A program made the position numbers and the translations under genes. The notes beneath the pieces are model-generated. The model worked only from the letters and a program-made list of their open reading frames with translations, was not told the DNA's origin and made no database searches. From assembly GCA_024137785.1 (NCBI GenBank), contig JAHRHZ010000267.1:21665100-21729099 (forward strand): DNA of 64,000 nucleotides, read 5' to 3'. This DNA comes from Ginglymostoma cirratum (lineage: Eukaryota). Shown in pieces: positions 12,901 through 59,954 of this stretch (positions are counted from its first letter, which is position 1; each line of letters begins with the position of its first letter).

Positions 12901-13761
12901 CCAACACAGACCATTAAATCTCCTCCTCCCTTGCCTCTCCAACATCTTTTCAAGCAGTACAATGTGCCCTTCACCAGGTAGGGAACAGATATGTAAAATT
13001 GTCAACCCGACTTTAATGGATGCTACTCATCCCCTTTTAAATTGAATAAACTACAAACTTACAGGTAAATTCTCTCAAAACTGGTACCCTCAAAGCCAGT
13101 GGGTCAAATGAAGCACTTGAACCTTGGGAATATACCAGCACACGAGCAAGAGAACAGCTAACAAGTTCAGTGCTATATTACACTTAGCCAAATTGTCCAG
13201 GTAAGTTAACTGTAATTGAGAAATAAAGAAACAAAATGCCTGACATATTCTAAAAATATCTGGTTTTCAGACAATTCCAGTTTTGAGACAGCCAATGCAC
13301 TACCCACTACACATCCTCTCATTCTTCCTTTGGTCAGCTTCTTGCACTAAGGAGCCATGGTCAACATTCTGGCTGTCCATCCACCAGTCCTCATCCTAAC
13401 CCTCCAAGAAATTAAAGTTCCACCGGTTGGATAGGATCATTTTCAGCTGATCCTCATTCTATATCTCACCTGAGCTCTCCTTACTGGGTACTCTGCTGGC
13501 CATATTAAAATGGTTCCGATCCTGCATCTTTTGTACAAAGTCTGACCAAGATCCGAAGAAACTCTGTAGAGTTTGTCACCCCTCCCATAAATGACAGAAT
13601 GTATCCCACTCAAACTCCAGGTCAGTGAGTGAGAGTTTCAGAGGTTAAAACAGAGACATTTACTTCAGGCCTATGCCACTCAGGGTAATCGTGCTTTCCT
13701 CAAATTTCCATGCAGACTCTCGATTTCCGTGTCATAGGGAAAATCCAGCCCAGTGTGTCAG

Positions 13762-13860
13762 TTCTGAGGAAAGGTCACCGGATCCGAAAGATTAACTCTG
13801 TTTTTGCCTTCACAGATGTTGCCAGACCTACTGAGCTTTTCCAGCAATGTTGTTTTTGTT
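13762..13860 (+). mobile_element. Minimal PLE-derived family B element (HHR motif plus 3' arm) with TSD
   Basis: ctgagga-aaggtc-accg-gatcc-gaaagattaactc followed by the gatgttgccagacctactgagcttttccagca arm; flanked by ccagtgtgtcag (13750-13761) and ccaatgtgtcag (13861-13872). Confidence 0.75.
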
Positions 13861-13889
13861 CCAATGTGTCAGCCTTTGTTACAGAAGAG

Positions 13890-14460
13890 ATTACAGTATA
13901 AGAATATGGAAGCTTTTCTATGAATATAATAAGTGTTGGTGAAGCCATATTTGCAGTACTGCATGCAGTTTTGGTCTCCTGACCTAAATGAAGGGCGTGC
14001 TTGTCTAAGAGGAAGTACGACGCAATTTCACTCCACGAGCTCATAGGATGAAGCAGTTACACTATGAGGAGAGGTTTGACTTGGCCTATATTCCCTGGTA
14101 CATAGAAGATGAGAGTTGGCCTAATTGAAATGAGGGCCGCATGAGAGAGAGAGAGATATATGTTTTCCCACTTATAAAATTCTGAACCATAAACTCACTA
14201 CAAGTTTTTTTTCAGGACTGAGATGAGAAGAAATTTATTCGCTCAGAATTCTCTACTCCAAACAGCTGTGGCTACCTAATTGTGGAGTACATTCAAGACA
14301 AAGGTCACGAGATTTTTTTTGAGTACTAAGAGAACTAAACATATGATTATACTGCAGAATGGTAGATGGAGGTAGATGAAAGCTTATAATTTCGGTGAAA
14401 CGCAGAACAGGCTCAAAGGGCCAAATGGCCTGCTCCTTTGCATATTTTGTATGTTCTTTC
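13890..14460 (+). mobile_element. Decayed CR1 3' portion
   Basis: gcagtactgcatgcagttttggtctcct (YCxQFWSP) and terminal ggctcaaagggccaaatggcctgctcct. Confidence 0.75.
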
Positions 14461-14592
14461 AGGCTTTAAGAATATTTTAATTATATTTTGGTGAACACCA
14501 AATCGTAAATGACAACCACTAAATGAGAAGTACTAGCCATTAAACTCCCTAACCAACAAATTTAACATTCAATTGTAAGTATTCAGGATACT

Positions 14593-14593
<1 letters not shown>

Positions 14594-14641
<48 letters not shown>
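14594..14641. repeat. (CA)24 microsatellite
   Basis: Perfect CA run. Confidence 0.97.
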
Positions 14642-14643
<2 letters not shown>

Positions 14644-14709
14644 GAGTTGACTATGGCATCACTTCCAAGTTCTCACTCTGCTTGTCCGTCTTTCCGTCCC
14701 CCATTTAAA

Positions 14710-15178
14710 AACATAGAACAGTACAGCACAGGCCCTTCGGCCCACAATGTTGTGCTGACCTATTAGCCTACTAAAATCAAACTACCCTGCATACCCTACA
14801 TTATACGACCATCCATGTGCCTATCCGAGAGTCGCTTAAATGTCTCTAATGTATCTGACTCCACTACCACTGCCAGCAGCTCATTCCATGCGCCCAGCAC
14901 TCTGTGTAAAGAACCTACCTCTGATATCTCCCTATACCTTCCTCCAATCATCTTAAAATTATGCCCCCTCGTAATAGTCATTTCCGCCCTGGGAAAAAGT
15001 CTCTGGGTCTCCACTCTATCTATGCCTCTCATTATCTTGTACACCTCTATCAAGTCACGTCTCATCCTTCTTTGCTCCAATAAGAAAAGCCCTCGCTCCC
15101 TCAACCTTTCCTCATAAGACCTGCCCTCCATTCCAGGCAGCTTCCTGGTAAATCTCCTCTGCACCCTCTCTAAAGCTT
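14710..15178 (-). mobile_element. Relatively young 5'-truncated HER1/CR1 LINE 3' end
   Basis: Open ORF 14796-15164 (QRRFTRKLPGMEGRSYEERLRERGLFLLEQRRMRRDLIEVYKIMRGIDRV...) is the CR1 ORF2 C-terminus; tail catagaacagtacagcacaggcccttcggccc. Confidence 0.92.
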
Positions 15179-18042
15179 CATTTCTTCACTGAGCTCTGCT
15201 GCTGCCAGTGTGCGTAGTCTTTTAAAACCTGTCAGTCTAGTTCCTGTCTCAAGATTACACAAACCACAACAGAATGTTTTAGGCAAAAGAAATATCTCTG
15301 CTCCCCTGTGTGCACAATGCAATTCTCAATCAAATTTGGAATTTCCCACTATGGTCACAATGTAGCCGATTAGCTTTGTAATCGGTGATTAAGCTCCCTT
15401 ATTTCAGCACTATCTTTACATGCTTAAACAGCAGGAGCAAGACTGAGGAAATGCCAGGTATAGAAGTGTGAGTGTGTTACTTCTTCCTATGTTACCTTCT
15501 CCTAGGTTCCTGCCTATGCACTGTCTTTAACAGACACAGAAAAGCAGGTAAGGACGAGAAGCCAGTGAAGGATCAAAAATCTAATGACAGGTTTTAGTTT
15601 ACAACTGAGATTGGAATCTCACTGCAAGATCACAGAAACGTGAAGCAGTCTGTATCCCTTCCCTCTCCTGGCATCTTGTCACATGTAGCTGCGGCATTTA
15701 TCTCAGAAATTTAATACATATTAACACTGAATCTTCTATTCTGAGGATAGACCACACTGCCCAAAGCCAGTCCACAGCTTATCCTTTCAGAATTTTTTTT
15801 TCAATTTTTAAACCTTAAATCTCAAAGACAGGAGTATGATTAATTAAATGCAATATATCCATTTATTTCACAAGTATATTAGAATATCCAGAGCACAAGG
15901 TACTTAGATGACTAAGAAGCATCTGCAGGTTCAGATCCACCCAATACAGACAAGGTATCTTCTCATACAGCCTTTAGATTCAATAGGATTTATGCCATAG
16001 TACAGATCCTAAACATGACTTGCAGCATCATAAGTTTGTGGATTTTCAATCACATGGTTTCTACAGCCATTTTTCTACTCCAAGACAATCCAAATCTTTT
16101 GAGACTCAGCCCGTTTATTTTCTCTCACACATGTCCGCTCGAGAGTCATGATATCTTTTGGCACGAGTAGACTGCCATCAGATTTTTGTAGGAGTTATAT
16201 TCCTCATATAGAACCAAAGGAACAGTTTTGTTTAACTTGGGAAAAAATCTTTAGAATGAGCAAATAGCAAATTTTTTGTCAAGGAAGCTATGATGTCAAA
16301 ACAACAACTTTTGCTTTCAGTACATTAAAGGTTAAGGACAAATAACTTAAGAAATTGGGTAATAGTCTAACTGGTAAAACGATTTTTGAATATGACCAGC
16401 AATATTCTGCAAGTTTGAAGAGTTACTATGTCAGTTAAGCATACACCTTCAGAAAAGCAGGTTTTGCTTTTACATTCTTGTACAATCCATGTGCCATTTG
16501 CACAGTATTTAAATAAAAGCAAATGGATTAAGATACTAGAAGACTGTTCTGAAAGGTCTCAAACGCCCCAGAAGTCCGTAAAACTCTTTTATAAAGTAGC
16601 CAAAGAACACTGAGGTTTTGTTACCATAGTGACAGCTCATAAATCATTACTTATTGTCTGCCATTATAAATGTGACAGGTTCACACTGTCATAAAGCTCC
16701 ATGCACTTTCTGTTAATTTTGAGGTATTTCCATACATCATTTGTTTTCCAAAAGAAATGTCATGACAACCACTGAACACTTAAGCTTGTTACCAGGTACT
16801 GGGCTTTTCATTAGGCAATCTTTCCATCCCTACCCCCTTCCCCTGCCATTACGCACTTTTTTGCATTATTGAGTAGTTTACCAGTTCAATTTAGAAGTAC
16901 ATTTCTTAACTTGCAGAAAGCATAATATGCTCAGCTTAGCAGAAAATATAAGGGCATACCAGTTGCTATGGTGACTTAAACAGATCAATTTTCTGTCATA
17001 ATTCTAAAGGAAATACTCTCCTGTGGTTTAAAGTACTAATTACCAATGCAGAATGCTTGCTAACATGTTCAGCTCACAGTACAAAGTTGTGCATGGCTAA
17101 TTCATGAGCTGAAACAGTTTTGAATATTGGTACAGAATGAATAATGTCTTTGACATCTATGCAGTCCTTTAAAGGTTGTTTTCATATTCTTTCATGTTTC
17201 CTAGACTCTGTTATGTCCTACTCCGAATGGCCAAGAACTTTGTATTGTGCACCGTCAAAATCCAAATGTAGTCTTAAGATTTATCTTTATCTGAATTACT
17301 GGGACATATTTCATTTTCAATGTGAAACATGCTCACTTCAGCCTTTGGTGCTAACGTATGGTTCATCACTGTTCAGTTCTGATCATTTTGCTCCTTTTGT
17401 CCTGCAACACACTAGTCCTTTTCAGGGACTGATATTCAACTTTGTTCCCAGCGCTTTCTTTAAGTTATCCATGAACCTTTTCATAGTGCATTCGTCTTGA
17501 AGAAGCGCAGAGTAATGACTTGTTTGGAAACAATTCACAGTGGAAAGGAATGACACAAACTAGGTCCAATCAATTTATAAAATTGAAGTCTCTCTTTTAC
17601 TTTAATTGGTAAAAAATGTACTTTATCCAAAATATTTTATGTCGCAGACTTCTGATTTTTTTAAAAAAAAGGATAAAAGGTCAAATTGTTAACAACTAAC
17701 CATAATCGCAACTCACGTTTCTTAAGAGCAACCATCACAGCACAATTTTATCATTATTGTTTTGACTTTACAGTCCATCACTGTGCAATTTAAATTTTAA
17801 AAAACGCATGATGAAAATGTGCTCCTTGATATTATCAACTAGGTTAATAAAACATACTTGTCACAAATATAACTTCACATCTACTGTTTTTCTATTCATC
17901 TAATTTCTGAGCAAACTGTACATTTTTCATCACATCATGACTTCTGAGCCATTATTTAACAGAAGCTGACAAACTGTGCCACACAATTGCACAAGAAGTG
18001 ATTGCACACACTCTACAAAAGCTATGGATATATTGTCTCTAA

Positions 18043-18390
18043 ATCATAGAAAATCACAGAAACCCTACACTGTGGAAACAGGCCATTTGGCCCAATAAGT
18101 TCACATTGTCCCTCTGAAGAGCATTCCACCCAGACCAATTTGCCCACTCCTGCATTTCCCTTGTCTAACCCACCTAACCCAAACACCCCTAGGCACCATG
18201 GGCAATTTAGCATGGCCAATCCACCTACCCTGCACATCTTTGGAGCGTGGGAGGAAACCGGAGGAAACCCACGCAGACACGGGGAGAATGTGCAAACTCC
18301 ACACAGACAGTCACCCGAGGGTGGAATTGAAGCAGAGTCCCTGACGTTGTGAGGCAGCAGTGCTAACAACTGAGCCACTGTGCCACCCCA
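18043..18390 (-). mobile_element. HE1-type V-SINE, full length
   Basis: Minus strand: tRNA head gggtggcacagtggctcagttgttagcactgctgcctcac, V domain gtgtggagtttgcacattctccccgtgtctgcgtgggtttcctccgg, HER1-like tail gggccaaatggcctgtttccacagtgtaggg. Confidence 0.92.
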
Positions 18391-18401
18391 TTATTGCTGG
18401 G

Positions 18402-18450
18402 CTCAGAGACCCAGGTAATGCTCTGGGGACCCGGATTCAAATCCCACTGC
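18402..18450 (+). mobile_element. Partial tRNA-SINE head (same family as 1030-1372)
   Basis: cagagacccaggtaatgctctggggacccggattcaaatcccact with B box. Confidence 0.55.
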
Positions 18451-24165: not shown

Positions 24166-24851
24166 ATTCTGACCTACAAGGAAAAGTTACAATAAATATT
24201 GTTCAGGAGCTGCTCTTCCAATCACAGACTCACTATTTCTGGAAAGCAGCAACCTATCAGCAGACAGAAGCAGCCTCTGATTGGAGGAGCTGTGAGAAAG
24301 TTGAGTGGCAGCAGTGAACCAAGCTGTCCAGGTCGTGTATACAGGGTGGGAGAAAGTGTGGCGAGAGGAACAGAATGGCAAGTCTGACCTGGGATTCAGT
24401 CGGCCGACAGAATGTGGAGTGTAACTGTAAAGTATGGGAGAGGAGCTTCAAATGGAGTGAAGCCAGCAGCAAAAGCGGTGTGGGAAAGGGGCCACAAAAG
24501 GTCAGAAGAGGGCCTTCAAAGGGCAACAAGAGGCTGCATTGTGGGGAGAGGATTTGAAAAGAAAAGGGACAAGTTATAAAAAGGAGAAGTAAGAAGTAAG
24601 ACTTTCAAAAAAAAATAATGTGGATGCTGTTGTCATGAACTCTGTGTTAGTTATGTAATTTAATTCTGAACTGTTTATTTCATAAAGATTTGCTTTGGTG
24701 TTATCAGAGCTCAAAGCATCTCACCACACTGTGAATTACTTGAGGTGCAAGGAATGTGTTAAAAACAAAGTTGCAACCCGTGAACTAGAGATAACAAGGT
24801 GTGGAGCTGGATGAACACAGCAGGCCAAGCAGCATCATAGGAACAGGAGAG

Positions 24852-24885
24852 CTTGACGTTTCGGGCCTAGACCCTTCATCAGAAA
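24852..24885 (-). ncRNA. Minimal type I hammerhead ribozyme motif
   Basis: Minus-strand RNA uuu-CUGAUGA-A-GGGUC-UA-GGCCC-GAAAC-GUC^-aag: full core, stem II, palindromic ACGU stem III, short stem I. Confidence 0.78.
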
Positions 24886-24909
24886 TGTCTGTTATTTATT
24901 CCTATTCCA

Positions 24910-24943
24910 TTTCTGATGAAGGGTCTAGGCCCGAAACATCAAG
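24910..24943 (+). ncRNA. Minimal type I hammerhead ribozyme motif (stem III mutated)
   Basis: ttt-CTGATGA-A-GGGTCTAGGCCC-GAAAC-ATC-aag; GTC changed to ATC, consistent with CpG decay. Confidence 0.65.
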
Positions 24944-27900
24944 CTTTCTTGCTCCTATGATGCTGCTTGGCCTGCTGTGTTCATCCAGCTCCACACCTTG
25001 TTATCTCGGATTCTCCAGCATCTGCAGTACCTTTTATCTCTGCAACCTGTGAACTAACCAGTCCATAAAAAAAAGTGTGTTTATGGTGCTATCTTATGCC
25101 TGTTGTCTTGTGACAATTTATATGCTGTGCAGTCTAGGAAATTAATACCTTCCCTGTGTATTGTGGCTTTAGATTTAATGGCATGCCGATAGTTATTGAG
25201 GATACTGTTGCGTTCTTCTAATTCTGTTTCTGTTTAAGTCTCAATATCCTATGTGCAGCGCCTACACTGGAGATAATGTTACAATTTGAATGCATCACCT
25301 AATAATGGATTTAGCAAGAATGAAGTAGGAGCCCAGTAAACCAAAAGGCAACACCCAAAAATCAAAAAGTTGTCATCAATAAAATCTCAAGAGAAGCCCT
25401 CACCAATGTGCCAAAAAATAATCGGTGTCAGTAGTAAACAGGAATTGTATTCTTTTTCCACTCGCACTCATAAGTAGCAAAAACATGAAAGGCTAAAGAC
25501 TTTTAAGGTTTTTAACATAGTTCATCTAAAGCACTATGAGAGGTACAGATGGGACAACGAAACGAAAAACCAAACATATGGTGATATTTATTCTGAAACA
25601 CAGAACAAGTAAAAAGAAACACATTTTAAGAATCAGATTTGCTTTCGGTGACTGGGTTAGCATTTAGATATCGTGGCAATAATTCAGAGTAACAAGAATT
25701 AATTTAATTCATACTTGTCTATCTAACAAGATCTAATAATCCATGGTTTAGTTTAAAAAAGTATTTTTTTTTTTAAACTGCATTTCTTCTATCTGTAGAA
25801 TTTTCACCGTCCTGGACATTCAGCTTCTGCAATCTTTGGATACCACACATTTGGCTGGTGACCACTGGCTGAAGGATGTGCTCATTGGCATGTTCCTTAT
25901 AAGGTAAATGAAGTGTCATTCCATCTCCTGTGGTTAGTTTCCCTGAACCATCTCAATCAACAGCCTAGTTCTAGATGTACAAGGATCCTCGTGACTAATG
26001 CTAGCACTCCTCCAAAGTTGAAAGTGCACTCATCAGTGTTATTGCAATCTGTCTATATCTCTGCAGAGGAGACTAAACTATTCATTTTATACAAATCTAT
26101 GGCACGTCTGCCGTGGATCCTCCAGCAGAGACCATGTCTTATGAATTTCAATTCTCCCTAATATACAGGTATCATCACTGAGCTATACATCACCAGAATG
26201 ATAGAAAATCAATAACACAGCAATTCCATCTACAAGCTTGACACAAGAAAAAAATCCTCAGGAATATTGCTAAGTGATTGAGAGAATTTTGTAACCTGTT
26301 TGAAAATTAACCTGTATATAGAATTCTGGTAGGTATATTTGCAGTGTCACAAAGACAATCAGGCGATAGCAGATAGCATATATAAGAAAATGAAAAGTTG
26401 TGAAGTTTAAAGTTATCTCCTGCGTATCACTAACAGTTTTTGAGTTTATTGAGTTGTCTATTTTTAAAAAAAAGTACCATTAATTCTTGGATAAGAATCA
26501 GTTTTGGCATGTCAACATGATCTATTTTCTAGATTATAAACTGCTCTAGAGATAGTTCTTACCCTCCAGTCTTACCAGGGTCAGCTGTTCTTTTATCAGT
26601 GCATTTATTAAAAATAAAGGGCTAGAGTTAGCCATGTTGTGTTCAGCCACAGCCCCCAGAAAGCAACTGTATTACTCTGGAGCTATAACAGAGCATGGCC
26701 CGTTATTCCCTAGTTAATATTAGCAGTGGCTCAATTTCAAAGCATATCATTTGATAGCCCTTGCTCCAGGCTGTACCCCTGTCAAATTTTCTACAAAAGA
26801 GCCTGCTCTGGGACTCTTTACAGCACTACCGTTAATCAACAGAAATTATGCAGCAAAGAAAGTAGAAGGCTCTCCATGCGACCCTGGGGACACAGAAAGA
26901 GGGAACGACCAGTGCACATGGAAATGCTGCTGTAACTTCCAAATGAAGCTTGAGCACTCCGGGGACTCAAAATTGGGTCTGACAGTCTGTTACCACAGGT
27001 GCACCATTTTTACAAGTGATAGCTCTGTGACTACATGACTTCCAGCTGTTGTGATCAGCCATCAGTCTGCATTAACCCTACAGTACCTCATCTGTGGTAC
27101 GTCAAGTTACAGCATTCCTAAAATGCAAAAGCTAATTCCAAAAGAAAAATTCTTCCTTTCATCTCTGTCAGAAGAGATCAGTGACAGAAGGTTTTCCATT
27201 GTTCCTGAATTAACTTTCATATATTCCAGTTTCATTTACCTCCATTGATATAAACATTAATCGTGAAAATTGTGAATAGATTTTCTTCTGTTCTTTCTAC
27301 TCTTTTAGTACATATCAAGCAAAAAGATAAATACCTGTACTGTGCTGGTGAACATTTATGAATGTAATAGTTTAAGTACATAGAATTAAAATATAAAGAC
27401 TATTTTGTAGATATGCCATCCATTTCCCTAACGGAACGGCAACAGATCAATACAATCGCCTCATTTAGATTTTAGTTTGCTCAGTCGTATAGGATAAACA
27501 ATTTATATGCATGCCCATTATTCCCATTGATTGTTAACTCTTATATCATAAGTGATGAGGCAAAGAATTCTGTCCAAGTCATTCCTATTTACATCCGATT
27601 AAGATTTATACTAACTGTCGCCTAGAATCATGATGTTATGGTTGAGGATAAAATACCACTGTGTGATGATCTCGCTGCAAAAGCAATTTGATAAATTAAA
27701 TTTGCCAAACATTGGAGAGAAGGAACCTCCAGTTTTGACACGCTCACTCTTACCTACCATCGTAGCTTGCTGCTCCTTTCAATCTGGACTTTGAAAGCTT
27801 GACCCTCCAACTTCTAGAGCCCCCTTCCACCAATCTCTGCCATTCTTAATTGGAATGATGATCCCACCCCCTTCCCCTTAGTGGATCACCCATGGGCATA

Positions 27901-31635: not shown

Positions 31636-32192
31636 TAGTTGACTGAAAAATAAATATGATCTGATAACCACGATGGAGACATGGCTGCATGGTGACAAGG
31701 GTAGGTCCTGAATATTTATGGGCATATAACATTACAGAAGATTATTAAGCCAGGTAAAGGTGGAAGGGGAAAACTAACAATGCTGGCACTGGTGCAACAG
31801 TTAGGGATAACCTTAGTTCAGGAGATCAAGAGGTAGAATCAATTTGGATTGAGTTGAAGAATAGTAGAGGAAATAAGTCATGAGTAGGGACAGTTTATAG
31901 ACTCCCAAACAGAAACCATGATGCAGGATTAATTCTACAAAGAAATACTGAGTGCTCGTGGTAAAGGCAAGGCAATAATCATGGACAATTTTAATCCACG
32001 TATAAACTGCAATGGTAGTCTGGATGAAGAGTTCAAAGAATGTTTTTGAGATATTTTCTTAGAGCATCACATTCTAAAACACACCAGGTTATAATAGAGA
32101 TAAAAGGTACTGCAGATGCTGGAGAATCCGAGATAACAAGCATGGGGCTGGATGAACACAGCAGGTCAAGCAGCATCATAGGAGCAGGAAAA

Positions 32193-32226
32193 CTTGACGT
32201 TTCGGGCCTAGACCCTTCATCAGAAA
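32193..32226 (-). ncRNA. Minimal type I hammerhead ribozyme motif, intact
   Basis: Minus-strand RNA uuu-CUGAUGA-A-GGGUCUAGGCCC-GAAAC-GUC^-aag. Confidence 0.78.
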
Positions 32227-32232
32227 TGGGGG

Positions 32233-32332
32233 NNNNNNNNNNNNNNNNNNNNNNNNNNNNNNNNNNNNNNNNNNNNNNNNNNNNNNNNNNNNNNNNNNNN
32301 NNNNNNNNNNNNNNNNNNNNNNNNNNNNNNNN
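32233..32332. other. Assembly gap (100 N)
   Basis: Run of N; the same 32 nt (ttcgggcctagacccttcatcagaaatggggg) flanks both sides. Confidence 0.99.
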
Positions 32333-35300
32333 ATTCGGGCCTAGACCCTTCATCAGAAATGGGGGAGGGGAAGAGGGTTCTGAAATAAATAGGGAGAGAG
32401 TGGGAGGCGGATAGAGGATGGATAGAGGAGAGGATAGGTGGAGTGGAGGCAGACAAGTCGAAGAGGCAGGGATGGAGCCAGTAAAGGTGAGTGTAGATAG
32501 GGCAGTAGGGAGGAGATAGGTCAGTCCAGGGAGGACGGACAGGTCAAGGGGGCGGGATGATGTTAGTAGATAGGAGATGGGGGTGTGGCTTGAGGTGAGA
32601 GGAAAAACAAGTTAGGGAGGTGGAGATGAGCTAGAGATAAAAGGTACTGCAGATGCTGGAGAATCCGAGATAACAAGCATGGGGCTGGATGGACACAGCA
32701 GGTCAAGCAGCATCATAGGAGCAGGAAAACTTATAATAGACTCAGTTTTGTGCAATATTAGAGGATTAATGAACGACACCAGAGTTTAGGTTCCCCTAAA
32801 TAGCAGGGACGACAACATTTTACATCGAGTCTGAAGGGGAGAAGAGTGGGTCTAAGTCTTAAGCCTAAGTAAGGGCAATTATGTTGACGTGAAAGTTGAG
32901 CTAGCCAAGGTGGACTAGGATAAGCAGCTAGGGGATAAATGAATAAGAAAGCAGAGGCAGATATTTAAGGGATATTTCAGAACACTCAGAATGAACATAT
33001 TCCTATGAAAAAAAAATTAAAATGGAGAACCACCAGCTGTGGTTAAGTAAGAGGCTAAGGAAAACAGCAAACGTAAGGGAAAAGTATATTATTCCACAAA
33101 GGTGAGTGGCAAATCAGATAACTGGGCAAAATATAAAGAACAGCAGAGAATGTCCAAGTAGATTAATACAGAGAAAGAAATTAAAGAATGAGAGGAAACT
33201 AGCTGGAAATGTAATAATGGATCGCAAGAGCTTCTACAGATATTTAAAAAGGAAATGAGTAAATAAAGTGATTGTTGATTCTCCAACTGTGAGAATGGGG
33301 AGTATGAAACTCAGAATACGCTTAAATGGATCTTTTTCAGATCAGAAGAGAGTGACAAGGGGAGTCATGCAGGTGCCTATGCTGGGGCCTCTACTTTGTA
33401 CAATTTACATCGGTGACTTAGATGAGGGGAGCAAAGGCATGGTAGCGAAACTTTTACCTGACAAAAAGATAGGTAGAAAAGCATGTTGTGAAGAGGATAT
33501 GAGGAGGATGCAGATAGTCATAGAGTGGGCAAAAATTTGGCAAATGGAGCATACATTGGCAAATATGGGAAAAATGTGAGGTTGAGAACTTTGGCCGGAA
33601 AAGTAGTAATGTGTAGTATTACTTAAGTTCTGACTGCAGAGTTTTAAGGGCAGAGAGTTCTAGGTGTTCTAGTACATGAGTCACAACATGTTAGTATGTA
33701 GCAATTAATTAAAAAGGGTAATGGAATACTTGCCTTTATCACAAGAGGAAATGAAAACTAAATCAAGGAGTTACACTTCAGTTTTGCGGAGCATGAGCAT
33801 GATCCCAAGTAAGTGTGTTAGAGGTGGTTCGAAGTAGGTTTATTCTGGAGGACAGGTTGGACAAAATGGACTTACATTGGTGCTTAGAACAGTGATGGGT
33901 GACGACTGAATTTTGCGAGATTCTGAACAGTGTTGACAATGTGGATGTTACAAGAAAGGTTCCTCTTGTGGGTGAGTCCACAATTAGGAAGCAGTTTAAA
34001 AATTAATGGTCACAGCTTTAGAGAGACATTTTTCCTCTGACAGCTGCCAGAATTTTGCAACACTCTGTCTCCAAACATGTTGGGGTTGCCTTAGAATATT
34101 TTTAAGATGGAGGTAGACAGATACTCGTTCGGCAAAGGAGGCACTGGGATTAGATGGGAAATTGAAATTCAAAATGCATATAGATCAGGCATGATTTTAT
34201 TGCATGGCGAAGCAGGCTATAGGCAGCGAATGGCCTATTTCTGCCCCTAATCTGTATATTCATTTCTCAAACTCTCAAGCTGTGAACAACCACAACGGAT
34301 GTTACTGATTTAATACACCAGTGATTTTAGTAAAGAACTCTGAACTTGTGACATGATCACAGGGGTCAGACAGCAATGTTTTGCCATCTACTTTTAAAAC
34401 AGAGAAACAAAAAGACACAATCCTTCCAGCAAGGAGAGACCATCCGAAAATCATTGAACTGGTCGTATAGTTCCCTTGCAGCTAATGTACTGAACAGCTA
34501 TACTTCAAAGTGAGAGAAGGAGTCTCCCCACACTGTTCTAATTTCAGGTTCAACTGAGAGCTGACCAGCCACAATTCACTCAAGAAGCCTTGGAGTTCAT
34601 TTAGAGACCTCGGCTTTCCAAGACCTTCATTCCAGCCAAAGCATCAATACATCTAAGAAATTACAGGGCTGTTATGTAAGTGAGATGGACACAACAACAT
34701 ATTGTAATCATATCGTCCAAGACACAGGCAAGAAAACGAAGGTATTATCTGTGTAGTTGACCACTGGGTATATGGGCTCAAAAGGCACTGGCTTGATACT
34801 GACAAAACTCATTCACAGCTGACTTTTTCAGGCACCAGAGATTAGAAGTATTCATCCCATCAAAGCAGACGAGAATTAGGCAGTAAAGACAAATGGGCAG
34901 GATGTTAATCCACTGCTCCAAAACCACGAAAGAATTCTTCCAGAGAATTTGTTCATATGAGAGGCAGCCTAGAGCTGCAGTCTAACAACCCCAAAGATCT
35001 TTGGTGGACAAGCTGACCTAACCCAAGCTCACTTACACGAAAAAAAAGTACATTGCAGGCAATCCCCTGAAATGTGAAATGTGATGGTGCTGAAACAGGG
35101 AGGAAATATAAGATTATGCACTAAAAAAAATTAAATAATACAAGGCACTTCTGTGATATATTTCAGAATATCAAACATAATGATGTTGTCCCACACTCCA
35201 TGTTCATATATTAAGCTGCTTGGGATGAGTTCAAATGTAACAGATGTGAGTGCTGCAGCAGGATCTTTCCCCAAGAGGCCAACAATTTTGAGAACAGGCT

Positions 35301-36574: not shown

Positions 36575-36708
36575 ATAAAAGCAATACGATGGATGCTGTA
36601 ACCTTGGACAAAAACAGCAAATGCTCGAGAAACTCAGCAGGTCTCCATCACCTGCAGGCAGAGAAACAGAGTTATCATTTTGAGACTGATATGACTCTTC
36701 TTTGGAAA
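36575..36708 (-). mobile_element. Old PLE-derived family B-like arm with degenerate HHR
   Basis: gatgctgtaacc...aaaacagcaaatgctcgagaaactcagcaggtct...gagaaacagagtta. Confidence 0.65.
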
Positions 36709-41445: not shown

Positions 41446-41645
41446 AATAAAAACAGAAACGGCTGGAGAAACACCGCAAGTCTGACAGTTAACGTCAGAA
41501 GTTTTGGAGAAGGCTTGAAGAAAGTTTTGAAATGTTAACTCTGTTTTCTCTTCACAGATCCTGCCAGACCTGGTGGATTTCATCAATAATTTCTATTTTT
41601 GTTTGTTTCACATCTCCAGCATCTGTAGTTCTTTGTTGTGATTTA
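41446..41645. mobile_element. Old PLE-derived family B palindromic element
   Basis: aaaaacagaaacggctggagaaacacc...gttaacgtc opposite gaaatgttaactctg...ccagacctgg...ctccagcatctgtagttc. Confidence 0.65.
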
Positions 41646-44816: not shown

Positions 44817-44837
44817 CAAACTACAGAATACACTCAT

Positions 44838-46100: not shown

Positions 46101-47540
46101 GAAAGAAACTTTCATGAAGCTCAGTGATTCGTAGCCAAACTGTGCAAAGGTTCAGTCTTTTGTCCAGAGCAACTTAACCTGTTTAATTACGTCAGCTGAA
46201 TTCAATAACACATTTATTTGTCAGGTTCATGATCCAGACAGAATGTCCAAAACCCTATTTACTAGAGTTAATAGTCAGTGAATCAATAACATGTTAGCAA
46301 TTGTCTTGAATTCAGGGATTCAATGAAACTTAGCTCTTTGTTATTTTAGATTTAAACTGCGTAAAGATCTTCACTTAAGTAAAAATCCCTTAGGAAAAAC
46401 AAGCCAACAGTAAATGCTTCCTATTTGTTAAGCAGTCAATAGTAACAGATTACTTACTTTTAGGTATAGTGTCTGTCATCTGTCAAATTTGGCTCTACTT
46501 CTAAATTGTGACAACTTGCCTCATCTTTAGGAGTAGAATTTTTCACTTTCCAAAACGTCAAGACAATTTGTTTGGAGAATGATTGGGAGTGCTGGTCCCT
46601 CCCATGGAATTTTTAACCCCGTGCTATGCGAATTTTATTTCCCTTTCTTGGAAGAGTGCCCCCATGTGGTCTGTATCAGTTACTTCCAACCATGAACAGC
46701 AGGCAGCTGATGTTGCGACCGGAAATTCAACATCAGAAACTAGCAATGTATTAAATCCTTTACAAGGGTTGAATAAATTCCCCATAATTACACAATAAAT
46801 ATACAGTCACTGATTACACATAAACATATAAACAACAGATTAGACAATAGGTAGAATATATACTATTTAATATGTTTGCCATTCTTCAGTTCATACTCAT
46901 GCGCGACAGAAAATCTTCTTTGCAGCTGACAGCAATGGAGTATGCATTCTACCAATGGTCCAGCAATACTTTGTTTGGTAACAAGATACTAACACTTGGG
47001 CTTCCACTGGAAACAGAACTATTTAATCTACCAGGATCAAAGAATGGCACAGCAGGATGGAAAGGGCTATATTGCCTATGCTTTTCCTTTGTGTCAAATG
47101 CTGGCAGTTTTCCTTCTGTTTACATGCCAGAGGAACGCTTGTACTTTTTCGTATATTTAGACAATTATAAAATGAGAGGAAAAAATATAATGATAAATCC
47201 TGAGACTGTTGAAATTCAGACATTATCTTTGAAAAAGAAGTAAAGTTGAGGTTGATTTTTGAGTACAACAGCATTCTTGTACCAAGAGATGGAGGTATGT
47301 TGTGTGTGTAACCCTGGTCACCCATTTACCTTGCTGGCACATGGCAGTTTTCAATGTCCCACTAAGCAAAAGGACAAGGCAATAGCTTGCATAAAACAAT
47401 TGTAAAGGAGGTCTAATTCTTAACAAAATAGATACTAGGTTATATTGCATGCATCAAACACTCCTTTTGGAAAGACTGAAAGAGCCGTCTCTGTACCATA
47501 ATGTATAAGGATTGTAAATACCAGGGTTCAAAATATGTTT

Positions 47541-47737
47541 AATAAAAACCAAAAGAACTGTGGATGCTGTAAATCAGGATCAAAAACAAAGTTGCTGGAA
47601 ATTAACGTTTCGGGTCCGGTGACCCTCAGAAGAGTTCTGAGTTCTGAGGAAGGGTCGTCGGAGCGGAAATGTTAACTCTGTTTTCTCCTCCACAGATGCT
47701 GCCAGACCTGCTGAGCTTTTCCAGCAACTTTATTTTT
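47541..47737. mobile_element. PLE-derived family B palindromic element with two degenerate HHRs and 15-bp TSD
   Basis: ttaacgtttcgggtccggtgaccctcag (minus HHR) and gagttctgaggaagggtcgtcggagcggaaatgttaactc (plus HHR); TSD gttcaaaatatgttt (47526-47540) and gttcaaaataagttt (47738-47752). Confidence 0.82.
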
Positions 47738-47837
47738 GTTCAAAATAAGTTTCTCTTTTGAGAATTTCTCCAGAGGTATTTTTAGTTCTCACCAAGTCTT
47801 TTATTGGGTGATGCAGTTATATACGAACAACACTTCT

Positions 47838-48934: not shown

Positions 48935-50070
48935 TGACATCAGGAGTGCCACAATATGAGCAATTAACCAATCACAGGATAGGAAGGAATGTGCTGGCAT
49001 GGATGACTGACTGTCTGTTAAGCAGCGAGTAAGAATAAACAGGTCATTCTCACATTGCCAGGTGATGACTAGTGGGATACCACAAAGACCAGTACTTAGG
49101 GCCTCGCTGTCCAAAACATACATCAATGATTTGGAATTGGGGACGAAGTGTAATATTTCCAAAATATACAGATGATACAACGCTAGGTAGGAACTGCAAA
49201 ATACTAAAACAAAGAACTGCAGATGATGGAAATCTCAAACAAAAACAGGTATTGTTAGAGAAACTCAGCAGGTCTGGAAGAATCTGTGGAGAGACTGCAG
49301 AGTTAATATTTCGAATCCAGACTTCATGTTCTGACGAAGGGTCACTGGACTCGAACATTAACTCCGTTTCTCTCTCTCCACAGATGCTGGCAGACCTGCT
49401 GAGTTTCTCCAGCAATTTCTGGTCATGTTTAAGTAGGAATGTCTGCTGTGAGGAAGATGTAAAGTGGCTACAGAAGGATTTGGATAGGTTTAATGAATGG
49501 GCAGGAACATGGCAGTGGAAGATAATGTGGAAAATGTGAGGTTATCCATTTTGGCTGGAGAAAACATTGGTGCAAAGTGTTTCTTAAAAGGAAAGTGGTT
49601 GGAAACTTTAGATGTACAAAAGGGACTTAGGTGTCCTTGTTGCTAATTCACCAAAGGCTGGTGCAGCAACCTAATGGGTAAGCTTATAGAATGTTAGCCT
49701 TTAATACAAGAGGATTTGAGTACAGGAGCAGTGGAGTCTTGTTTCAATTGGAAAATAGCTTGGGTGGAGCACACACAGTACTATATGCATTTATCATCTT
49801 TTTATCTCAGGAAAAGATATTATTGCCACGGACAGCGTGCAATGAAGGTTCACCAGACTTGTTCCCACTATGATAGAACTATCCTTTAACGAGACATTGG
49901 GCAAACTTGGTCTAAATTCGATAATGTTAAGAACAGCAGGTAATCTCATTGAAACTTACAAAATACGTAAACAGATAGATGCCGGAAAGATGTTTCTCCT
50001 GGTTGGGGACTAGAGAAACTGGGAGCACAATTTAACAGTAAGGGAACTATCACTTTAGTTTGTGATGAGG
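48935..50070 (+). mobile_element. CR1 RT to near 3' end, interrupted by a PLE-derived element
   Basis: agtgggataccacaaagaccagtactt (SGIPQ), KYTDDTTLG, EEDVKWLQKDLDRFNEWA. Confidence 0.85.
49200..49423. mobile_element. PLE-derived family B palindromic element
   Basis: Inverted arms gagaaactcagcaggtctg and cagacctgctgagtttctc; HHR motif ctgacga-agggtc-actg-gactc-gaacattaactc. Confidence 0.8.
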
Positions 50071-50800: not shown

Positions 50801-51423
50801 CAGTTAAGATCATTCATTCATTAACATACAGAAGAGGTTTAAATTTCCCAAAACTTTTCACTGCGCTAGCGAATAGCTGTAGGCGAGGTAAATGGGTAAG
50901 GTGGCATGTGGTGAGGTTAGGTCAGGTTGAGTCAGTTAGAGAGTTTGGAAGATTCAAGTTGTGGCAGGGAGAGGGATTTGCACAGTTGGTGGAATCAGAG
51001 GGTCCGCGCAGTGTGCCAGAGGGCAGCGGTGGGGCTGGCGGTGGCAGTGTTAAGCAGAAATTGGAGGAATGTTCAGTCAAATAGACAGGAATAAGAAATG
51101 TTTTTTTATTTGTATAACAACTTGTGAATAACTTTCAGACTCAATAATAAACGAGTGGAGTGCTTTAATTACCGTCCCTATCTTCTAATGACGATGAGGA
51201 CACAATAATTAAAATTAATGTTGGAGGGCCTGTTATTAAAGACAGGTCTGCAATCTCTGGTTTTGAAGCCAATATTACTCAATTGACTGTTCCCTCTTAG
51301 AGGAACAAAAAAATCAAAATAATGCAGATCTTGGAAATCCGAAACAAAACTGGAAAATACTGAAAACATTCAATAGATCTGGCAGTTTCTCTGGAGAGAA
51401 AAACAGAATTAACATTTCGAGCA

Positions 51424-51542
51424 ACCGAGATAACAAGCGTGGGGCTGGATGAACACAGCAGGTCAAGCAGCATCATAGGAGCATGAAAACTTGACGTTTC
51501 GGGCCTAGATCCTTCATCAGAAACAGTACCTTTTATCTCTGA
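51424..51542. mobile_element. Young PLE-derived family A element: inverted arm plus 17-nt terminal stub, 14-bp TSD
   Basis: Arm gagataacaag...catcagaaa followed by cagtaccttttatctct (51524-51540) in the opposite orientation; TSD taacatttcgagca at 51410-51423 and 51543-51556. Confidence 0.87.
51490..51523 (-). ncRNA. Minimal type I hammerhead ribozyme motif
   Basis: Minus-strand RNA uuu-CUGAUGA-A-GGAUCUAGGCCC-GAAAC-GUC^-aag; one stem II mismatch. Confidence 0.68.
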
Positions 51543-52914
51543 TAACATTTCGAGCAGATGCCTTTTTGTCAGTACTGTCAAAAATTGGGACAGCAGTTAA
51601 AGAAATTCAAAGCAGGGAAGAGGATAAGATAAAACACAAGGGTGATGGCTGTGATGGGGTGCAAGGCAGGATTGACAAAATGGGTTGTCAATGGGACAAA
51701 CATACAGAAAGCCAGAGAAATTGTCAATGACAGTGGTGATGGCAGTAGTTATGTTCCAGAATTGTTGAACTCCAAGTTGAGTATGGAGGGATGTAGAGTT
51801 CTGGCGAAATGTTATCAATCTACAAAGTTGAGAGTTTTCTGGAGATGCTGCCTGACCTGCTGAGTATTTTCAGCATTTTCTATTTTTATTTCCATCATCT
51901 GGAATGGTTACGTCAGTTTCAAATAACCGGTAAAGCAATTATTTACTGGCACAGAACTATTCACTGCCATGTAATACTGAGAAACCAAGTCCAGATCAAT
52001 TAACTTCAAAACGCTGATTTTCATCAGTGCATGGTTTAAACAGTTATTCTGTGATTGATCTTCCTGGCCAGAGCAAAGATCTTGGTTTTATATTAAAACA
52101 AGTTCTCTTCTCAAAACATCTGAATTGCAGCAAATGCTTATATAGTGTTGTCTTTGATCCTGCAGTAGATTAGAGATTTGTATTCTGATAAATAAGCGTT
52201 TCTGCCACTGTTCTATACTGGCATATCTGCTGCAAAGCTGCTGCACTCTTGCAAGAGGTAGTGCAAAAAGAGGACTTGCAGAATGACAATGCGTTGTTGC
52301 ATTGAGCTCGTACAAAGTAGTGTGACATTTGTAGTCTGAATTTTACCAGTCCTCCAAGTTGTTGGAGTTTTGAATTACTTATGCAAGCCATGCCAATATA
52401 ACAGATGACAACAGCAGATAAAAAGAAATACAGACTGGTCATGTTGGATGCTACTTAGAACATGACAAGATTTTCCTCAAAAGACCAAATATCCCTACAG
52501 AATTTTCACCAATGATTTACCTAAAGTATGTGGCTGCTAATGATAAAGTAAAGCCGAACGTATTGCACTGGACAAACACAAATCTAAATCAAAGTAAACC
52601 TAAGATGTCAAATGGCAAATTTAAGATTGAGCACTAAAATAGTGAGGCATGATGACCTGCTTGAGCAAAAAACGTTGCTGTTGCTTTGGGACATTGATCA
52701 TTGGTATCGAAATATCAACCTGCAATTTGATTTCGAGGTCACTAAGATCAGCTTCAAAGCACATTTTTAATAGCGTTACTCTTAGAGGCATGTTCCACAT
52801 GGGGATTTGGCTTTAAGTAAACATAATTTCAGAATAACAAACGTGCCAAGTTCCTCATAGGTATAGATTTTATTTTGCCTCTGAAAACAATAGTTATATA
52901 ACATCAAACACCAT

Positions 52915-53600: not shown

Positions 53601-53629
53601 ATGAAATTCTCAACCTCCATCCTTAATAT

Positions 53630-57200: not shown

Positions 57201-58525
57201 CTGCTTGTTCATATATCTCACATACAGGCCAACACCATTTGCATGTCCCATTTAAGCAGCAAAATTTAAGTTACTTTGCTTTATGTTCTGACTGTACCCA
57301 TTTCTAAATAAAAACATATAGCAATAAGTGTGAATCACTCTGGAAAAAAAACAGAGCCATGTGCAGAAATATTAACACAGTCGCATTGTAGATGTTAAAA
57401 TATCATTTATATATCAGAGAGTTAACTTTCTAGTTCTCTAGTAGAAAACATACCAGAAGCTGCTAGATCCATAAATTATTCAAGACCAGAAAGGAAATTA
57501 ATTGTAAATCTTCGTGGTCAACAAAGTAGGATCAATGCTTTATGCTTCACTTAGGATCAAACCACAGTCACATGTTTATGAATGACAATAACACTCAATA
57601 TAGAGAGAAACACACAACTTAGCAGAACGGAAAGCTATAGTGGACTATTTTCAAAGAGCCACCTGAAGTCAAAAATCAATACAAAGCTTTGATTGCAAGA
57701 AAGAACAGACACTGGGCATAGCAATTACCATTTGGCTTGCATTAATCTTACAGCTTGACCTTTGGAATTGTACAATGTGTCTGTAGCCTATGAAAATATC
57801 AATACATGTATTGTTTTTGATATTTGTCTGCACTCTTTCAATCCTCCTTTATTTGTTTGATTTTCTGATATACCACACAAATTACATTAATATGACACAG
57901 GGTTTTCAATCTGCTCTGTAAGCAAGTTTAGTGTCTTGAAATATCTTTGCATTTGACGTAGCTTGATGTTTGCATTATTAATAGATTATTGATTTCCATG
58001 TGAAAGATAACAACATTTTGGATCATTATCAGTGCTAAGTATTTAGAAACATCAATTCATTTTCTTAAGATAAATAAGTTCAATCTGGTTTAAAAACATA
58101 TAAAATGATGTTTCTGATGGCTTCACTTTAATTGAGAAAACAAACTCAATCACAAATTAATTACAAAATTTTTTGTAAAAATAGAAATGATTCATTTTTT
58201 CTTAATAATTTCCCAAGAAACTTTATTCTTCCAGAACTACATGTACTGTTTGGCTTATGAAAAAAACTGTGTGTTTTGAAACATAATCTATCATTACAAT
58301 GATAGTTTCACCAATCTAAGCCCTTCTTGATGTTACCTGTTCTTGATTCTGTCTATTACTAAAACAATGTCAAGACCCTTATCAAATAAAAGACAGCTTC
58401 CTCCTTCGACTTAATCAATAGCTATTTCCATGTTGCCTAACTCTCCCAGGCCAAATCTGCCTTCAAGACTATGTCCTGTAACATTCTGCTCTCCCAATAT
58501 GTTAAGTTAGGACTTTTTATTTTCT

Positions 58526-58737
58526 CAAAAAAAAACCTAAAGAACTGCGGATGCCGTAAATCAGAAACCAAAACAGAAGTTGCTGGAAAAGCTCAGCAGG
58601 TCTAGCAGCATCTGCAGAGAGAAATCTGAGTTAATGTTTCGGGTTCTGTGGAAGGGTCACCGGTCCTGGAACGTTAACTCATTTCTCTTCACAGATGCTG
58701 CCAGACCTGCTGAGCTTTTCCAGCAACTTTTGTTTTG
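58526..58737. mobile_element. PLE-derived family B palindromic element with 13-bp TSD
   Basis: Inverted arms aagttgctggaaaagctcagcaggtct and agacctgctgagcttttccagcaactt; HHR-like ctgtgga-agggtc-accg-gtcct-ggaacgttaactc; exact TSD ctttttattttct at 58513-58525 and 58738-58750. Confidence 0.85.
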
Positions 58738-59954
58738 CTTTTTATTTTCTTACATTGAGGAATTATATCCAAAAAAAATTTTGCTTTGTGGAAAGAGGTT
58801 CCAGGCTACAGCTATACTGGAAGGTATTTGTATTGTCCAATGTTCAGCAAGCACAGATGAGTTACAGTGCCAAGTACAGCTCATATTAAACTAAACAATA
58901 CTGAAGGTCTGCTCACGTGCGCTCCAAACCACAAATGCAGGACTCTACGCTCTAGGTAGTCATTTTTGACATGAAAAAGCAGGCAAAGTTTGTAGAACTC
59001 AAGTAGTGTGAGGATACCTAAGTTAAGGTTGGGGTTGACACCTGCTTCACAAGACCCAGGTGTTGACAGCAAAAGAGCATCATAACAAGAACTAATGTTG
59101 AAGTTATTAGGGCAGGGATAAATACATTTTAAAAGTAAAATCTTCTGTGTTCTTGCATTAATTCACATGAGTAATATCACTGGTAATATCAAAGAGATGT
59201 TATGATGACTGATGACATCACTATGAACTGTTTGTGCATTTGTCCAAGGGTTTCTCAAAGATTTGTGGAAGCAGAGATGGGAACATTTGTTTCAAGATAT
59301 AATGGCAAACAACTGGTGAAGCTGCCAAACTCAAAAAAACACATTTGCGCTTGAGGGTTCTTGAGATTGTTGACTCAGATTGTGATGCACCCAGTGTGAT
59401 TTAATGACAGGCAGGTTTTCCCATTTTTGAAGTTAGTGCTCACCAAGGACAGATTTTGCCCTGTATCAGAAGGAAACAAAGAAATATAAGGACCAGATTG
59501 TCAGGCTGACACATTCCTCTCTCTGGGTGATATTCCTGGAGGAAGGTCATCGCTGACACAGTCAAAATAATTAGATATAAATTTGCAGGCTGATTAGGAA
59601 TTTCACTGGGATCCTCCAAACGTGGAAGGGACCTTGACTGAGAGCTAAGTGCAGCAGATTCCTGGGGGTGGCAGGCCAACATAGGACCACCAAGCCTCTT
59701 GTTACAACTCCCCACATTCCACCCATAATCCTTAAAAGGTGGGCCTAAAAGTGGCCTATTAGTTGGGGATGCCTCGGAGGAGATCTCTCAGGGAGGCACA
59801 CTGATAAACAGTACTGGGAAATGGGGGAGTGGAAATGATACTACCCTTTCATCACGACTTTTAAAGGTCACAGGATTCCACTCATAGTTTTCCACACTGA
59901 AAATGAGGAGGATGGCAGATTCCACTCCTGTCTGGGACTGAAATAACTGCTGTT

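What the first reader, a model, noticed from the sequence alone, without database searches (positions are those of the whole stretch)
13750..58750. Dispersed hammerhead-ribozyme-bearing miniature Penelope-like retroelements in two families
Seen: about ten non-coding elements of 100-640 bp. Family A: 1-33, 24788-25040, 32096-32732, 51424-51542. Family B: 13762-13860, 36575-36708, 41446-41645, 47541-47737, 49200-49423, 51305-51900, 58526-58737. The better-preserved copies share CTGAnGA-A-GGGTC-loop-GRCCC-GAAAC-GTY. Position 7 varies (T, G, C), the stem II loop differs (TA, ACCG, ACTG) and stem I differs between families (ttt/aag versus gagtt/aactc) while pairing is kept. Six copies have 10-16-bp TSDs. 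Established: PLE pseudo-LTRs carry minimal type I hammerheads with a palindromic stem III thought to cleave as dimers, and PLE insertions often form inverted or partial-tandem repeats with a short tail. Inference: these are abundant SINE-like or retrozyme-like ribozyme elements mobilised in trans by a PLE RT/GIY-YIG enzyme. HHRs in PLEs are known; these particular miniature families may be undescribed.
Basis: partly seen in the sequence, partly recalled or inferred. Interest (0 to 1): 0.85.

Follow-up and report, generated by a model that had tools for sequence, protein, structure and literature searches.

The report
Penelope retroelement ends carrying hammerhead ribozymes
These short repeats are leftover end pieces of a known kind of jumping gene that carries a tiny self-cutting RNA; most are broken, but their ends fall at one spot so regularly that they may show how such elements copy themselves.

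Summary
The 11 elements are real. They are terminal repeats (pLTRs) of Penelope-like elements (PLEs) with the published minimal type I hammerhead (HHR). Seven are head-to-head inverted pairs, two are solo copies, one is a partial tandem and one is cut by the window edge. Six of 10 have target-site duplications. A 34-38 nt tail sits on only one arm in 6 of 7 pairs. All of this is described for PLEs.

Corrections: only 2 HHRs pass a strict descriptor, both in family A. A and B are homologous. Covariation does not beat controls. Inverted copies bury the HHR in a long hairpin. Two copies run 227-276 nt further upstream, one into a probable endonuclease C-terminus. So a self-propagating SINE or retrozyme is not shown.

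I did not find one pattern in print: 12 of 18 arms begin 0-6 nt before the HHR core, including 8 of 8 tailless arms but only 4 of 10 tailed arms. The likely cause is that the RT starts inside the pLTR and runs off a fixed RNA 5' end. This is a new member of a known kind, with a testable mechanistic lead.

The parts
1..34 (+). Family A pLTR, 3' part only (5' part outside the window); ends about 4 nt short of the tailless end
13750..13872 (+). B13762: solo tailless family B pLTR (13762-13860), HHR C3 at 13764, core damaged, starts 2-5 nt before C3; TSD 13750-13761 / 13861-13872
24772..24787 (.). Left TSD of A24788 (16 bp, 1 mismatch; right copy 25041-25056)
24788..24887 (-). A24788 tailless arm; intact minimal HHR, C3 at 24882
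24883..24911 (+). Junction spacer matching flank DNA 24135-24164 at 29 of 30 positions, with 5-nt microhomology to each arm (probable templated insertion)
24907..25041 (+). A24788 tailed arm; HHR C3 at 24913 with G16.2 changed to A; 34-nt tail 25008-25041
32096..32232 (-). A32096 downstream pLTR with tail; intact minimal HHR, C3 at 32223; TSD 5-10 bp (32089-32098 / 32731-32740)
32233..32365 (.). 100-N gap plus a second reading of the 32 nt that precede it (32201-32232 = 32334-32365); probable assembly overlap
32362..32632 (-). Pyrimidine-rich (78%) segment upstream of the family A HHR, inferred PLE 3' UTR
32633..32732 (-). A32096 upstream repeat, 100 nt with tail, beginning at the predicted HHR cut site (within 2 nt)
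36575..36708 (-). B36575: solo tailed family B pLTR, degenerate HHR, starts 2-3 nt before C3; TSD uncertain
41446..41645 (.). B41446 inverted pair: deleted tailless minus arm (41446-41500) and tailed plus arm (41500-41645); no TSD found
47526..47752 (.). B47541 inverted pair: tailed minus arm 47541-47631 with two internal deletions; tailless plus arm 47632-47740 (C3 47644); TSD 47526-47540 / 47738-47752
49200..49423 (.). B49200 inverted pair: tailed minus arm 49200-49322 starting in stem II; tailless plus arm with C3 at 49331
51305..51799 (-). B51305 long tailed arm: tail, pLTR, degenerate HHR (C3 51572, interrupted by A51424), about 177-nt pyrimidine-rich UTR and probable ORF end
51749..51799 (-). 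Probable last 16 codons and stop of a PLE GIY-YIG domain (suggestive only)
51410..51556 (.). A51424 inverted pair nested in the HHR of B51305: tailless minus arm 51424-51523 (C3 51520, one stem II mismatch) and 17-nt tail-only plus arm 51524-51540; 14-bp TSD 51410-51423 / 51543-51556
51797..51900 (+). B51305 second arm, degenerate, C3 at 51801; 3' end tailless or with a 9-nt tail remnant
58513..58750 (.). B58526 inverted pair: tailed minus arm from 58526 to stem II; tailless plus arm 58643-58737 (C3 58646, core damaged); 13-bp TSD 58513-58525 / 58738-58750

Best explanation
These are solo, inverted and partial-tandem pLTR insertions made by an autonomous endonuclease-plus PLE lineage with two related subfamilies (A younger, B older), copied mostly from that PLE's own transcripts. 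Step 1 (inferred from the TSDs; two-strand cleavage is shown for the anole PLE): GIY-YIG cuts both target strands 10-16 nt apart. Step 2 (shown in the anole PLE, matched here by two fixed 3' ends): the RT starts inside the RNA at either of two sites about 66 and 100 nt past the HHR cut site, giving tailless or tailed cDNA. Step 3 (inferred): when both target ends are primed, the two cDNAs are joined at their far ends by microhomology or a templated patch, giving a head-to-head pair with one tail. Step 4 (inferred): most arms, and every tailless arm, stop at the first strand of HHR stem I because the template RNA begins there, at an initiator-like site 4 nt before C3. Priming on the transcript's upstream pLTR therefore yields fixed 100-135 nt copies. 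The HHR is copied uncleaved in most cases. The inserted copies are largely dead.
For: There are two fixed 3' ends 34-38 nt apart, and the tail is on one arm only in 6 of 7 pairs, with 1 ambiguous. This matches the tail explained by two RT start sites (PMC11167929) and the PLE layouts in PMC8557442 and PMC3846280. TSDs are present in 6 of 10 insertions. The HHR has the PLE-type traits not forced by a descriptor: an extra base after A9, G10.1-C11.1, and palindromic 15.2-16.2 (PMC4209133). That paper also reports mostly single motifs and opposite-strand pairs tied to truncated PLEs. Two of 18 arms run 227 and 276 nt upstream into pyrimidine-rich sequence. One ends in a stretch ranking 4th of about 128,000 window positions against the last 9 columns of 26 PLE GIY-YIG C-termini. 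The 5' boundary is shared by 12 of 18 arms and 9 of 10 insertions; with the two least certain arms removed, P is about 1e-7 after a 128-fold correction, assuming uniform breaks. Tailless arms are at the boundary in 8 of 8 cases and tailed arms in 4 of 10 (Fisher p 0.013; 0.044 with three uncertain arms dropped). The anole PLE needs ORF sequence downstream of the start sites, which these short copies lack.
Against: No parent RT/GIY-YIG element was linked to A or B. Two protein searches with window-derived queries found nothing. The RT remnants in the window belong to an older family with no shown link. The ORF-end match ranks only 342nd with all 14 columns, and the 9-column test was chosen afterwards; the second arm starting there explains the drop. 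The initiator-like pattern is weak (1.3% of positions) and no transcript data exist. The true upstream sequence of family B is known from one degenerate copy. A short master element with this boundary would give the same clustering. The sample is 10 insertions in one window and arms within a pair are not independent. In the anole PLE the pLTR extends well upstream of the HHR, so the boundary is not universal.
Confidence: 0.68

Rival explanations
1. Non-autonomous miniature masters (SINE-like or retrozyme-like; about 135-nt pLTR units, or a 404-nt unit as in A32096) are transcribed themselves, possibly processed by HHR dimers, and mobilised in trans by a PLE protein.
For: The 5' boundary is fixed. 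A32096 reads as one 404-nt cut-to-cut unit plus 100 nt, and its 5' end lies at the predicted cut site. Retrozymes are reported in one chondrichthyan genome with a mean consensus of 363 bp and are proposed to derive from pLTRs (bioRxiv 10.64898/2026.07.22.740005). pLTRs sufficed for trans mobilisation in Adineta (PMC3846280). Non-autonomous PLEs are known in Chlamydomonas (PMC8557442).
Against: No array of complete HHR units is established; the second HHR half in A32096 borders a gap and looks like an assembly overlap. The 270-nt segment occurs once in the window. Seven of 10 insertions are inverted and bury the HHR. At least one of 16 ends landing at the cut site by chance has a probability of about 0.3. 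Masters alone do not explain why tailed arms vary while tailless arms do not. In that preprint 8 of 9 tested retrozyme dimers did not cleave.
Confidence: 0.22
2. Ordinary random 5' truncation of PLE cDNA. The shared boundary comes from RT stalling at the C-rich tract above the HHR, or from later deletion of unstable palindrome centres.
For: PLE insertions are usually 5'-truncated (PMC8557442). Arms of old pairs carry internal deletions (B47541, B41446). The sequence upstream of the family A HHR is C-rich.
Against: Uniform breakage is rejected. The solo copies B13762 and B36575 share the boundary with no palindrome to collapse. Stalling should affect tailed and tailless arms alike.
Confidence: 0.08
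3. The inverted copies are MITE-like DNA transposons or microRNA-like hairpins, and the HHR match is incidental.
For: Long terminal inverted arms with TSDs. Rfam gave only miRNA-hairpin matches below the gathering score at A24788 and no HHR family.
Against: The arms are asymmetric (one tail). TSD length varies from 5-10 to 16 bp. The same sequence occurs as solo and direct-repeat copies. The HHR descriptor is met twice against 0 in 100 simulated windows.
Confidence: 0.02

Closest known systems
pLTRs of EN+ Penelope-like elements (Penelope/Poseidon, Neptune, Xena) with minimal type I HHR (PMC4209133)
   Same: Core without loop III, palindromic 15.2-16.2, extra base after A9, G10.1-C11.1, 4-bp stem I; mostly single or opposite-strand motifs scattered through the genome
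   Different: Stem II is short here (4-5 bp; 7-8 bp in Schistosoma). A search of that paper's readable supplement for shark, skate, Callorhinchus and Leucoraja gave no hits. No parent ORF is linked here.
Anolis Poseidon PAc (PMC11167929)
   Same: Two 3' ends 30-40 nt apart downstream of the HHR; uncleaved RNA as the dominant template; TSDs mostly AT-rich (4 of 6 at 64% AT or more)
   Different: The PAc pLTR extends upstream of the HHR. Here most arms start at HHR stem I. No biochemistry is available here.
Adineta vaga Penelope inverted and solo pLTRs (PMC3846280)
   Same: Head-to-head pLTRs of defined length, an optional tail on one arm, TSDs, microhomology junctions
   Different: Those pLTRs are about 190-220 bp and mostly flank ORFs or captured DNA. 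Here the arms abut, TSDs are longer (10-16 against 8-10 bp), and the authors favoured self-priming.
Metazoan non-LTR retrozymes (PMC7229834; bioRxiv 10.64898/2026.07.22.740005)
   Same: Non-coding, type I HHR, related to pLTRs; the A32096 unit of 404 nt is in the size range
   Different: Retrozymes are tandem arrays with complete HHRs in consecutive units and circular RNAs. Here the copies are dispersed, mostly inverted and mostly broken.

Membership tests
Minimal type I hammerhead of PLEs | CUGAnGA and GAAA core, UH cut triplet, stems I and II, palindromic stem III without loop | tested here: met
   2 of 17 candidates pass (24882-, 32223-); 0 in 100 simulated windows. Family B fits only when copies are compared; no single B copy passes.
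Minimal type I hammerhead of PLEs | Extra nucleotide after A9 and G10.1-C11.1 | tested here: met
   Extra A in 8 of 8 aligned copies; G-C in 5 of 8, G-U in 1, unpaired in 2
Minimal type I hammerhead of PLEs | Covariation in stems | tested here: inconclusive
   One two-sided change (U-G to G-C); 84% of cells paired against 51% or less for slid controls, but 52-482 of 500 shuffles reach the observed values
Minimal type I hammerhead of PLEs | Self-cleavage as a dimer or with protein help | not testable with these tools
   Nearest-neighbour energy disfavours the active dimer (-5.1 against -33.8 kcal/mol for an alternative duplex). Tertiary contacts and protein are not modelled.
EN+ Penelope-like element insertion | Solo, inverted or partial-tandem pLTR layout | tested here: met
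   7 inverted, 2 solo and 1 partial tandem among 10 complete insertions
EN+ Penelope-like element insertion | Optional 30-40 nt tail, usually at one end | tested here: met
   34 nt in A and about 38 nt in B; on one arm in 6 of 7 pairs, 1 ambiguous
EN+ Penelope-like element insertion | Variable-length TSD | tested here: met
   6 of 10 insertions; 2 of 1000 random pairs score as high
EN+ Penelope-like element insertion | Continuity with an RT plus GIY-YIG ORF | tested here: inconclusive
   16-codon candidate C-terminus at 51752-51799: rank 4 of about 128,000 (9 columns), rank 342 (14 columns). Searches were empty.
Non-LTR retrozyme | Tandem units with complete HHRs in at least two consecutive units | tested here: not met
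   Only A32096 is a direct repeat; its upstream repeat lacks the HHR 5' half and the extra half-HHR borders a gap
Non-LTR retrozyme | Abundant circular monomer RNA | not testable with these tools
   No transcript data
SINE | tRNA- or 5S-derived Pol III head | tested here: not met
   No tRNA gene in the window and no tRNA or 5S Rfam match; the elements begin at the HHR
Annotated Dfam or Repbase family | Match to an existing consensus | not testable with these tools
   No eukaryotic repeat library or genome collection was available

The most novel reading that the evidence does not exclude
The copies record how PLEs build their inverted pLTRs. One protein dimer primes both nicked target strands on a single uncleaved transcript whose 5' end is the first strand of hammerhead stem I. 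One RT starts at the tail site of the downstream pLTR and is truncated anywhere, up to the ORF. The other starts at the tailless site of the upstream pLTR and always runs off that 5' end. The ribozyme would then double as the transcription start and promoter region, and the many single PLE hammerheads in animal genomes would be run-off products, not random truncations.
Probability: 0.3. Interest if true: 0.65.

Novelty: new member of a known kind. Interest (0 to 1): 0.38.

Why it matters
The ribozyme and the insertion layouts are known, so the finding as first framed is ordinary. These repeats fill about 4% of this window, so the genome should hold many thousands of junctions. How PLEs form inverted and tandem pLTRs is still described as undefined (PMC8557442). 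The fixed 5' boundary and the tailed/tailless asymmetry give a specific rule that can be tested by counting junctions and mapping RNA 5' ends. It also matters for annotation, since such pairs can be mistaken for MITEs or miRNA hairpins.

Tried and rejected
Rfam scan: 6 matches, all below the gathering score, none an HHR family.

Word-index protein searches with the RT remnant and with the open frame over the family A upstream segment: no hits. Atlas look-alike for the family A pLTR frame: best score 0.89 with low recognition, uninformative. Atlas for a LINE-like frame: eukaryotic hypothetical clusters, no lineage information. Pfam on 8 window frames: one weak match below cut-off.

I considered that the old PLE RT remnants at 25117-25206 and 47742-48095 are the parent of A or B. 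There is no link beyond proximity, A24788 is inserted beside one of them, and they are far more decayed.

I considered a splice acceptor at the 5' boundary, as in D. virilis where the intron ends at helix I. Family B has an AG there but family A does not, and no shared upstream exon appears at the junctions, so I rejected it as a general cause.

I considered an ORF start inside the pLTR. Both families have an ATG about 47 nt after C3 and some arms read through the tail, but a 1-nt indel between A subfamilies shifts the frame. This is unresolved.

Covariation as proof of structure is not significant. Monomer HHR stretches fold no better than shuffles. The Lunse 2017 paper on dimeric PLE hammerheads was not held. 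Source names for most retrieved PLE proteins stayed unknown, so the clade of the old remnants was not fixed.
Full report
Setting. The window is 39% GC with one 100-N gap. No tRNA genes were found and no open frame longer than 192 codons. From recall, not from any call, its LINE, SINE and PLE repeats look like those of a cartilaginous fish. The tools did not confirm the lineage. No eukaryotic genome or repeat library was available, so everything below rests on this window, retrieved proteins and papers.

Observation. All 11 listed elements are present. Self-alignment and profile searches added only a fragment at 48756-48795, which lies in a local duplication of the B49200 end and its flank (48762-48878 against 49391-49514). 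I left it and the edge-cut copy at 1-34 out of all counts, leaving 10 insertions and 18 arms. The elements cover about 2.6 kb, 4% of the window. Family A arms are 88-98% identical to one another and family B arms 72-94%, so A is younger. A51424 is nested inside B51305, which agrees. The two families are homologous. Six of 10 insertions have TSDs; 2 of 1000 random position pairs score as well.

The ribozyme. A strict minimal-HHR descriptor accepted 2 of 17 core candidates, both family A, and none in 100 simulated windows. Two further A arms miss by one base. Every B copy has core or stem damage, although together they fit the same fold. The motif has the traits reported for PLE hammerheads in PMC4209133 (main text parts 1-3 of 4 read; supplement searched). 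Covariation between A and B amounts to one two-sided change and does not exceed shuffled controls. The 2-nt loop proposed for family A is better read as a 4-bp stem with a 4-nt loop. Monomers cannot close stem III. In the inverted copies the two HHRs are on opposite strands and a transcript forms a long hairpin, so cleavage as a dimer in cis is not expected. Activity was not tested.

Anatomy. Read in the HHR sense, each arm ends at one of two 3' points about 66 and 100 nt after the cut site. Seven insertions are head-to-head pairs, two are solo and one is a partial tandem. In 6 of 7 pairs exactly one arm has the tail; the second arm of B51305 may keep 9 nt of it. PMC8557442 and PMC3846280 (passages) and PMC2377424 (passages) describe these layouts and the optional tail. 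PMC11167929 (parts 1-2 of 4; supplement 2 held only figure labels) shows that the tail lies between two internal RT start sites, that both target strands are cut and extended, that uncleaved RNA is the main template, and that ORF sequence downstream of the start sites is needed.

Link to a coding PLE. Two arms continue upstream into pyrimidine-rich sequence, for 276 nt (A32096) and 227 nt (B51305). The B51305 arm ends in 16 codons and a stop about 177 nt above the HHR. This stretch ranks 4th of about 128,000 positions against the last 9 columns of 26 GIY-YIG C-termini, chosen by motif from 63 retrieved proteins, but 342nd with all 14 columns. The opposite arm begins at that point (4 of 3000 random segments score as well), which would remove the first five columns. 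The 9-column test was chosen after the fact, so I treat it as suggestive. Separate RT remnants at 47742-48095 and 25117-25206 match proteins with RT and GIY-YIG domains. They show that an older PLE family was active here, not that it is the parent.

The unexpected regularity. Taking HHR C3 as zero, 12 of 18 arms begin between -6 and 0. Each is bounded by the opposite arm or the flank. Two are less certain: B41446 minus was read by eye through deletions, and B47541 plus carries a short duplication and could begin as far out as -12. The other six begin at about +10, +17, +28 (the cut site), +111, -227 and -276. Under uniform breakage over the 134-nt unit, even 10 of the 16 short arms in a 7-nt window has P near 1e-7 after correcting for window choice; 9 of 10 insertions has P near 2e-6. 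All 8 tailless arms sit at the boundary, against 4 of 10 tailed arms (Fisher p 0.013; 0.044 without three uncertain arms). This split was noticed after the fact in a small sample. Both families read as an initiator-like YYANWYY with the A at -4, but that pattern (recalled consensus) occurs at 1.3% of positions.

Mechanism. The simplest account joins the published internal initiation with an RNA that begins at stem I. Priming on a transcript's upstream pLTR can copy only 100-135 nt before running off the end. Priming on the downstream pLTR continues into UTR and ORF and is truncated at variable points. Priming both target strands gives the one-tailed inverted pair, closed by microhomology (B51305, B58526) or a patch copied from nearby DNA (A24788). 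The two start sites and two-strand priming are shown only in the anole element. The RNA 5' end and the division of labour between pLTRs are my inference. The upstream repeat of A32096 starts at the cut site, which hints at occasional use of cleaved RNA, but chance gives this about 0.3 of the time.

Rival. Short masters mobilised in trans remain possible, above all for A32096, whose unit would be 404 nt once the probable gap overlap is removed. bioRxiv 10.64898/2026.07.22.740005 (parts 1-3 of 5 read) already derives vertebrate retrozymes from pLTRs and reports them in one chondrichthyan genome. Its supplements were closed and might list related families. The retrozyme criterion of consecutive complete HHR units is not met here (PMC7229834, passages).

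Novelty. Eight literature searches returned no description of these two families or of the boundary rule. The library lacks most subscription papers, including Lunse 2017 (seen only as cited in PMC6765202, passages), and Dfam and Repbase were not searchable. Other papers seen as passages only: PMC6155905, PMC8455134 (Penelope listed for the whale shark), PMC8969392 and PMC6431247. One search was seen as a listing only.

Verdict. Real, PLE-derived, a new member of a known kind, interest 0.38. The boundary rule is the part worth following.

Noticed in passing
window 47742-48095 (+) and 25117-25206 (-); related flanks 24656-24724 / 48160-48231: Two decayed copies of an older PLE family. The RT thumb region matches RT plus GIY-YIG proteins. 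A24788 sits between the 24656 and 25117 pieces, and B47541 lies immediately before the other copy.
   Followed up: partly
window 24883-24911 and 24135-24164: The spacer of inverted element A24788 matches DNA about 620 nt upstream of the insertion at 29 of 30 positions, with microhomology at both ends. It looks like a locally templated repair patch.
   Followed up: partly
window 51410-51556: A family A copy inserted exactly into the stem III region of a family B hammerhead. One case only.
   Followed up: no
window 48762-48878 and 49391-49514: Local duplication (86% identical) carrying the 3' end of the B49200 plus arm and about 80 nt of LINE-like flank.
   Followed up: partly
window 32201-32365: The 100-N gap is flanked by the same 32 nt, probably overlapping contig ends, so the element may be about 130 nt shorter than assembled.
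   Followed up: partly
window 32204-32215 (-) and the other family A HHRs: Family A stem II and its loop form a near-palindrome, so two RNAs are predicted to pair through a 12-bp intermolecular duplex (-33.8 kcal/mol dimer). This could aid or block the active dimer.
   Followed up: no
family B pLTR, e.g. window 47680-47700: A strong splice-acceptor-like stretch directly followed by ATG lies about 20 nt after the cut site. Family A keeps the ATG but not the AG. It could supply cryptic exons or the PLE ORF start.
   Followed up: partly
window 32083-32088 and 47520-47525: Two TSDs, one per family, are preceded by the same six bases. May be chance.
   Followed up: no
window 18050-18390 (-); 14590-15185; 18940-19920; 33259-33600; 39196-39614; 49040-49570: A tRNA-headed V-SINE-like repeat and many CR1/L2-like LINE fragments (labels recalled, not from a call), plus a CA microsatellite near 14600.
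   Followed up: no
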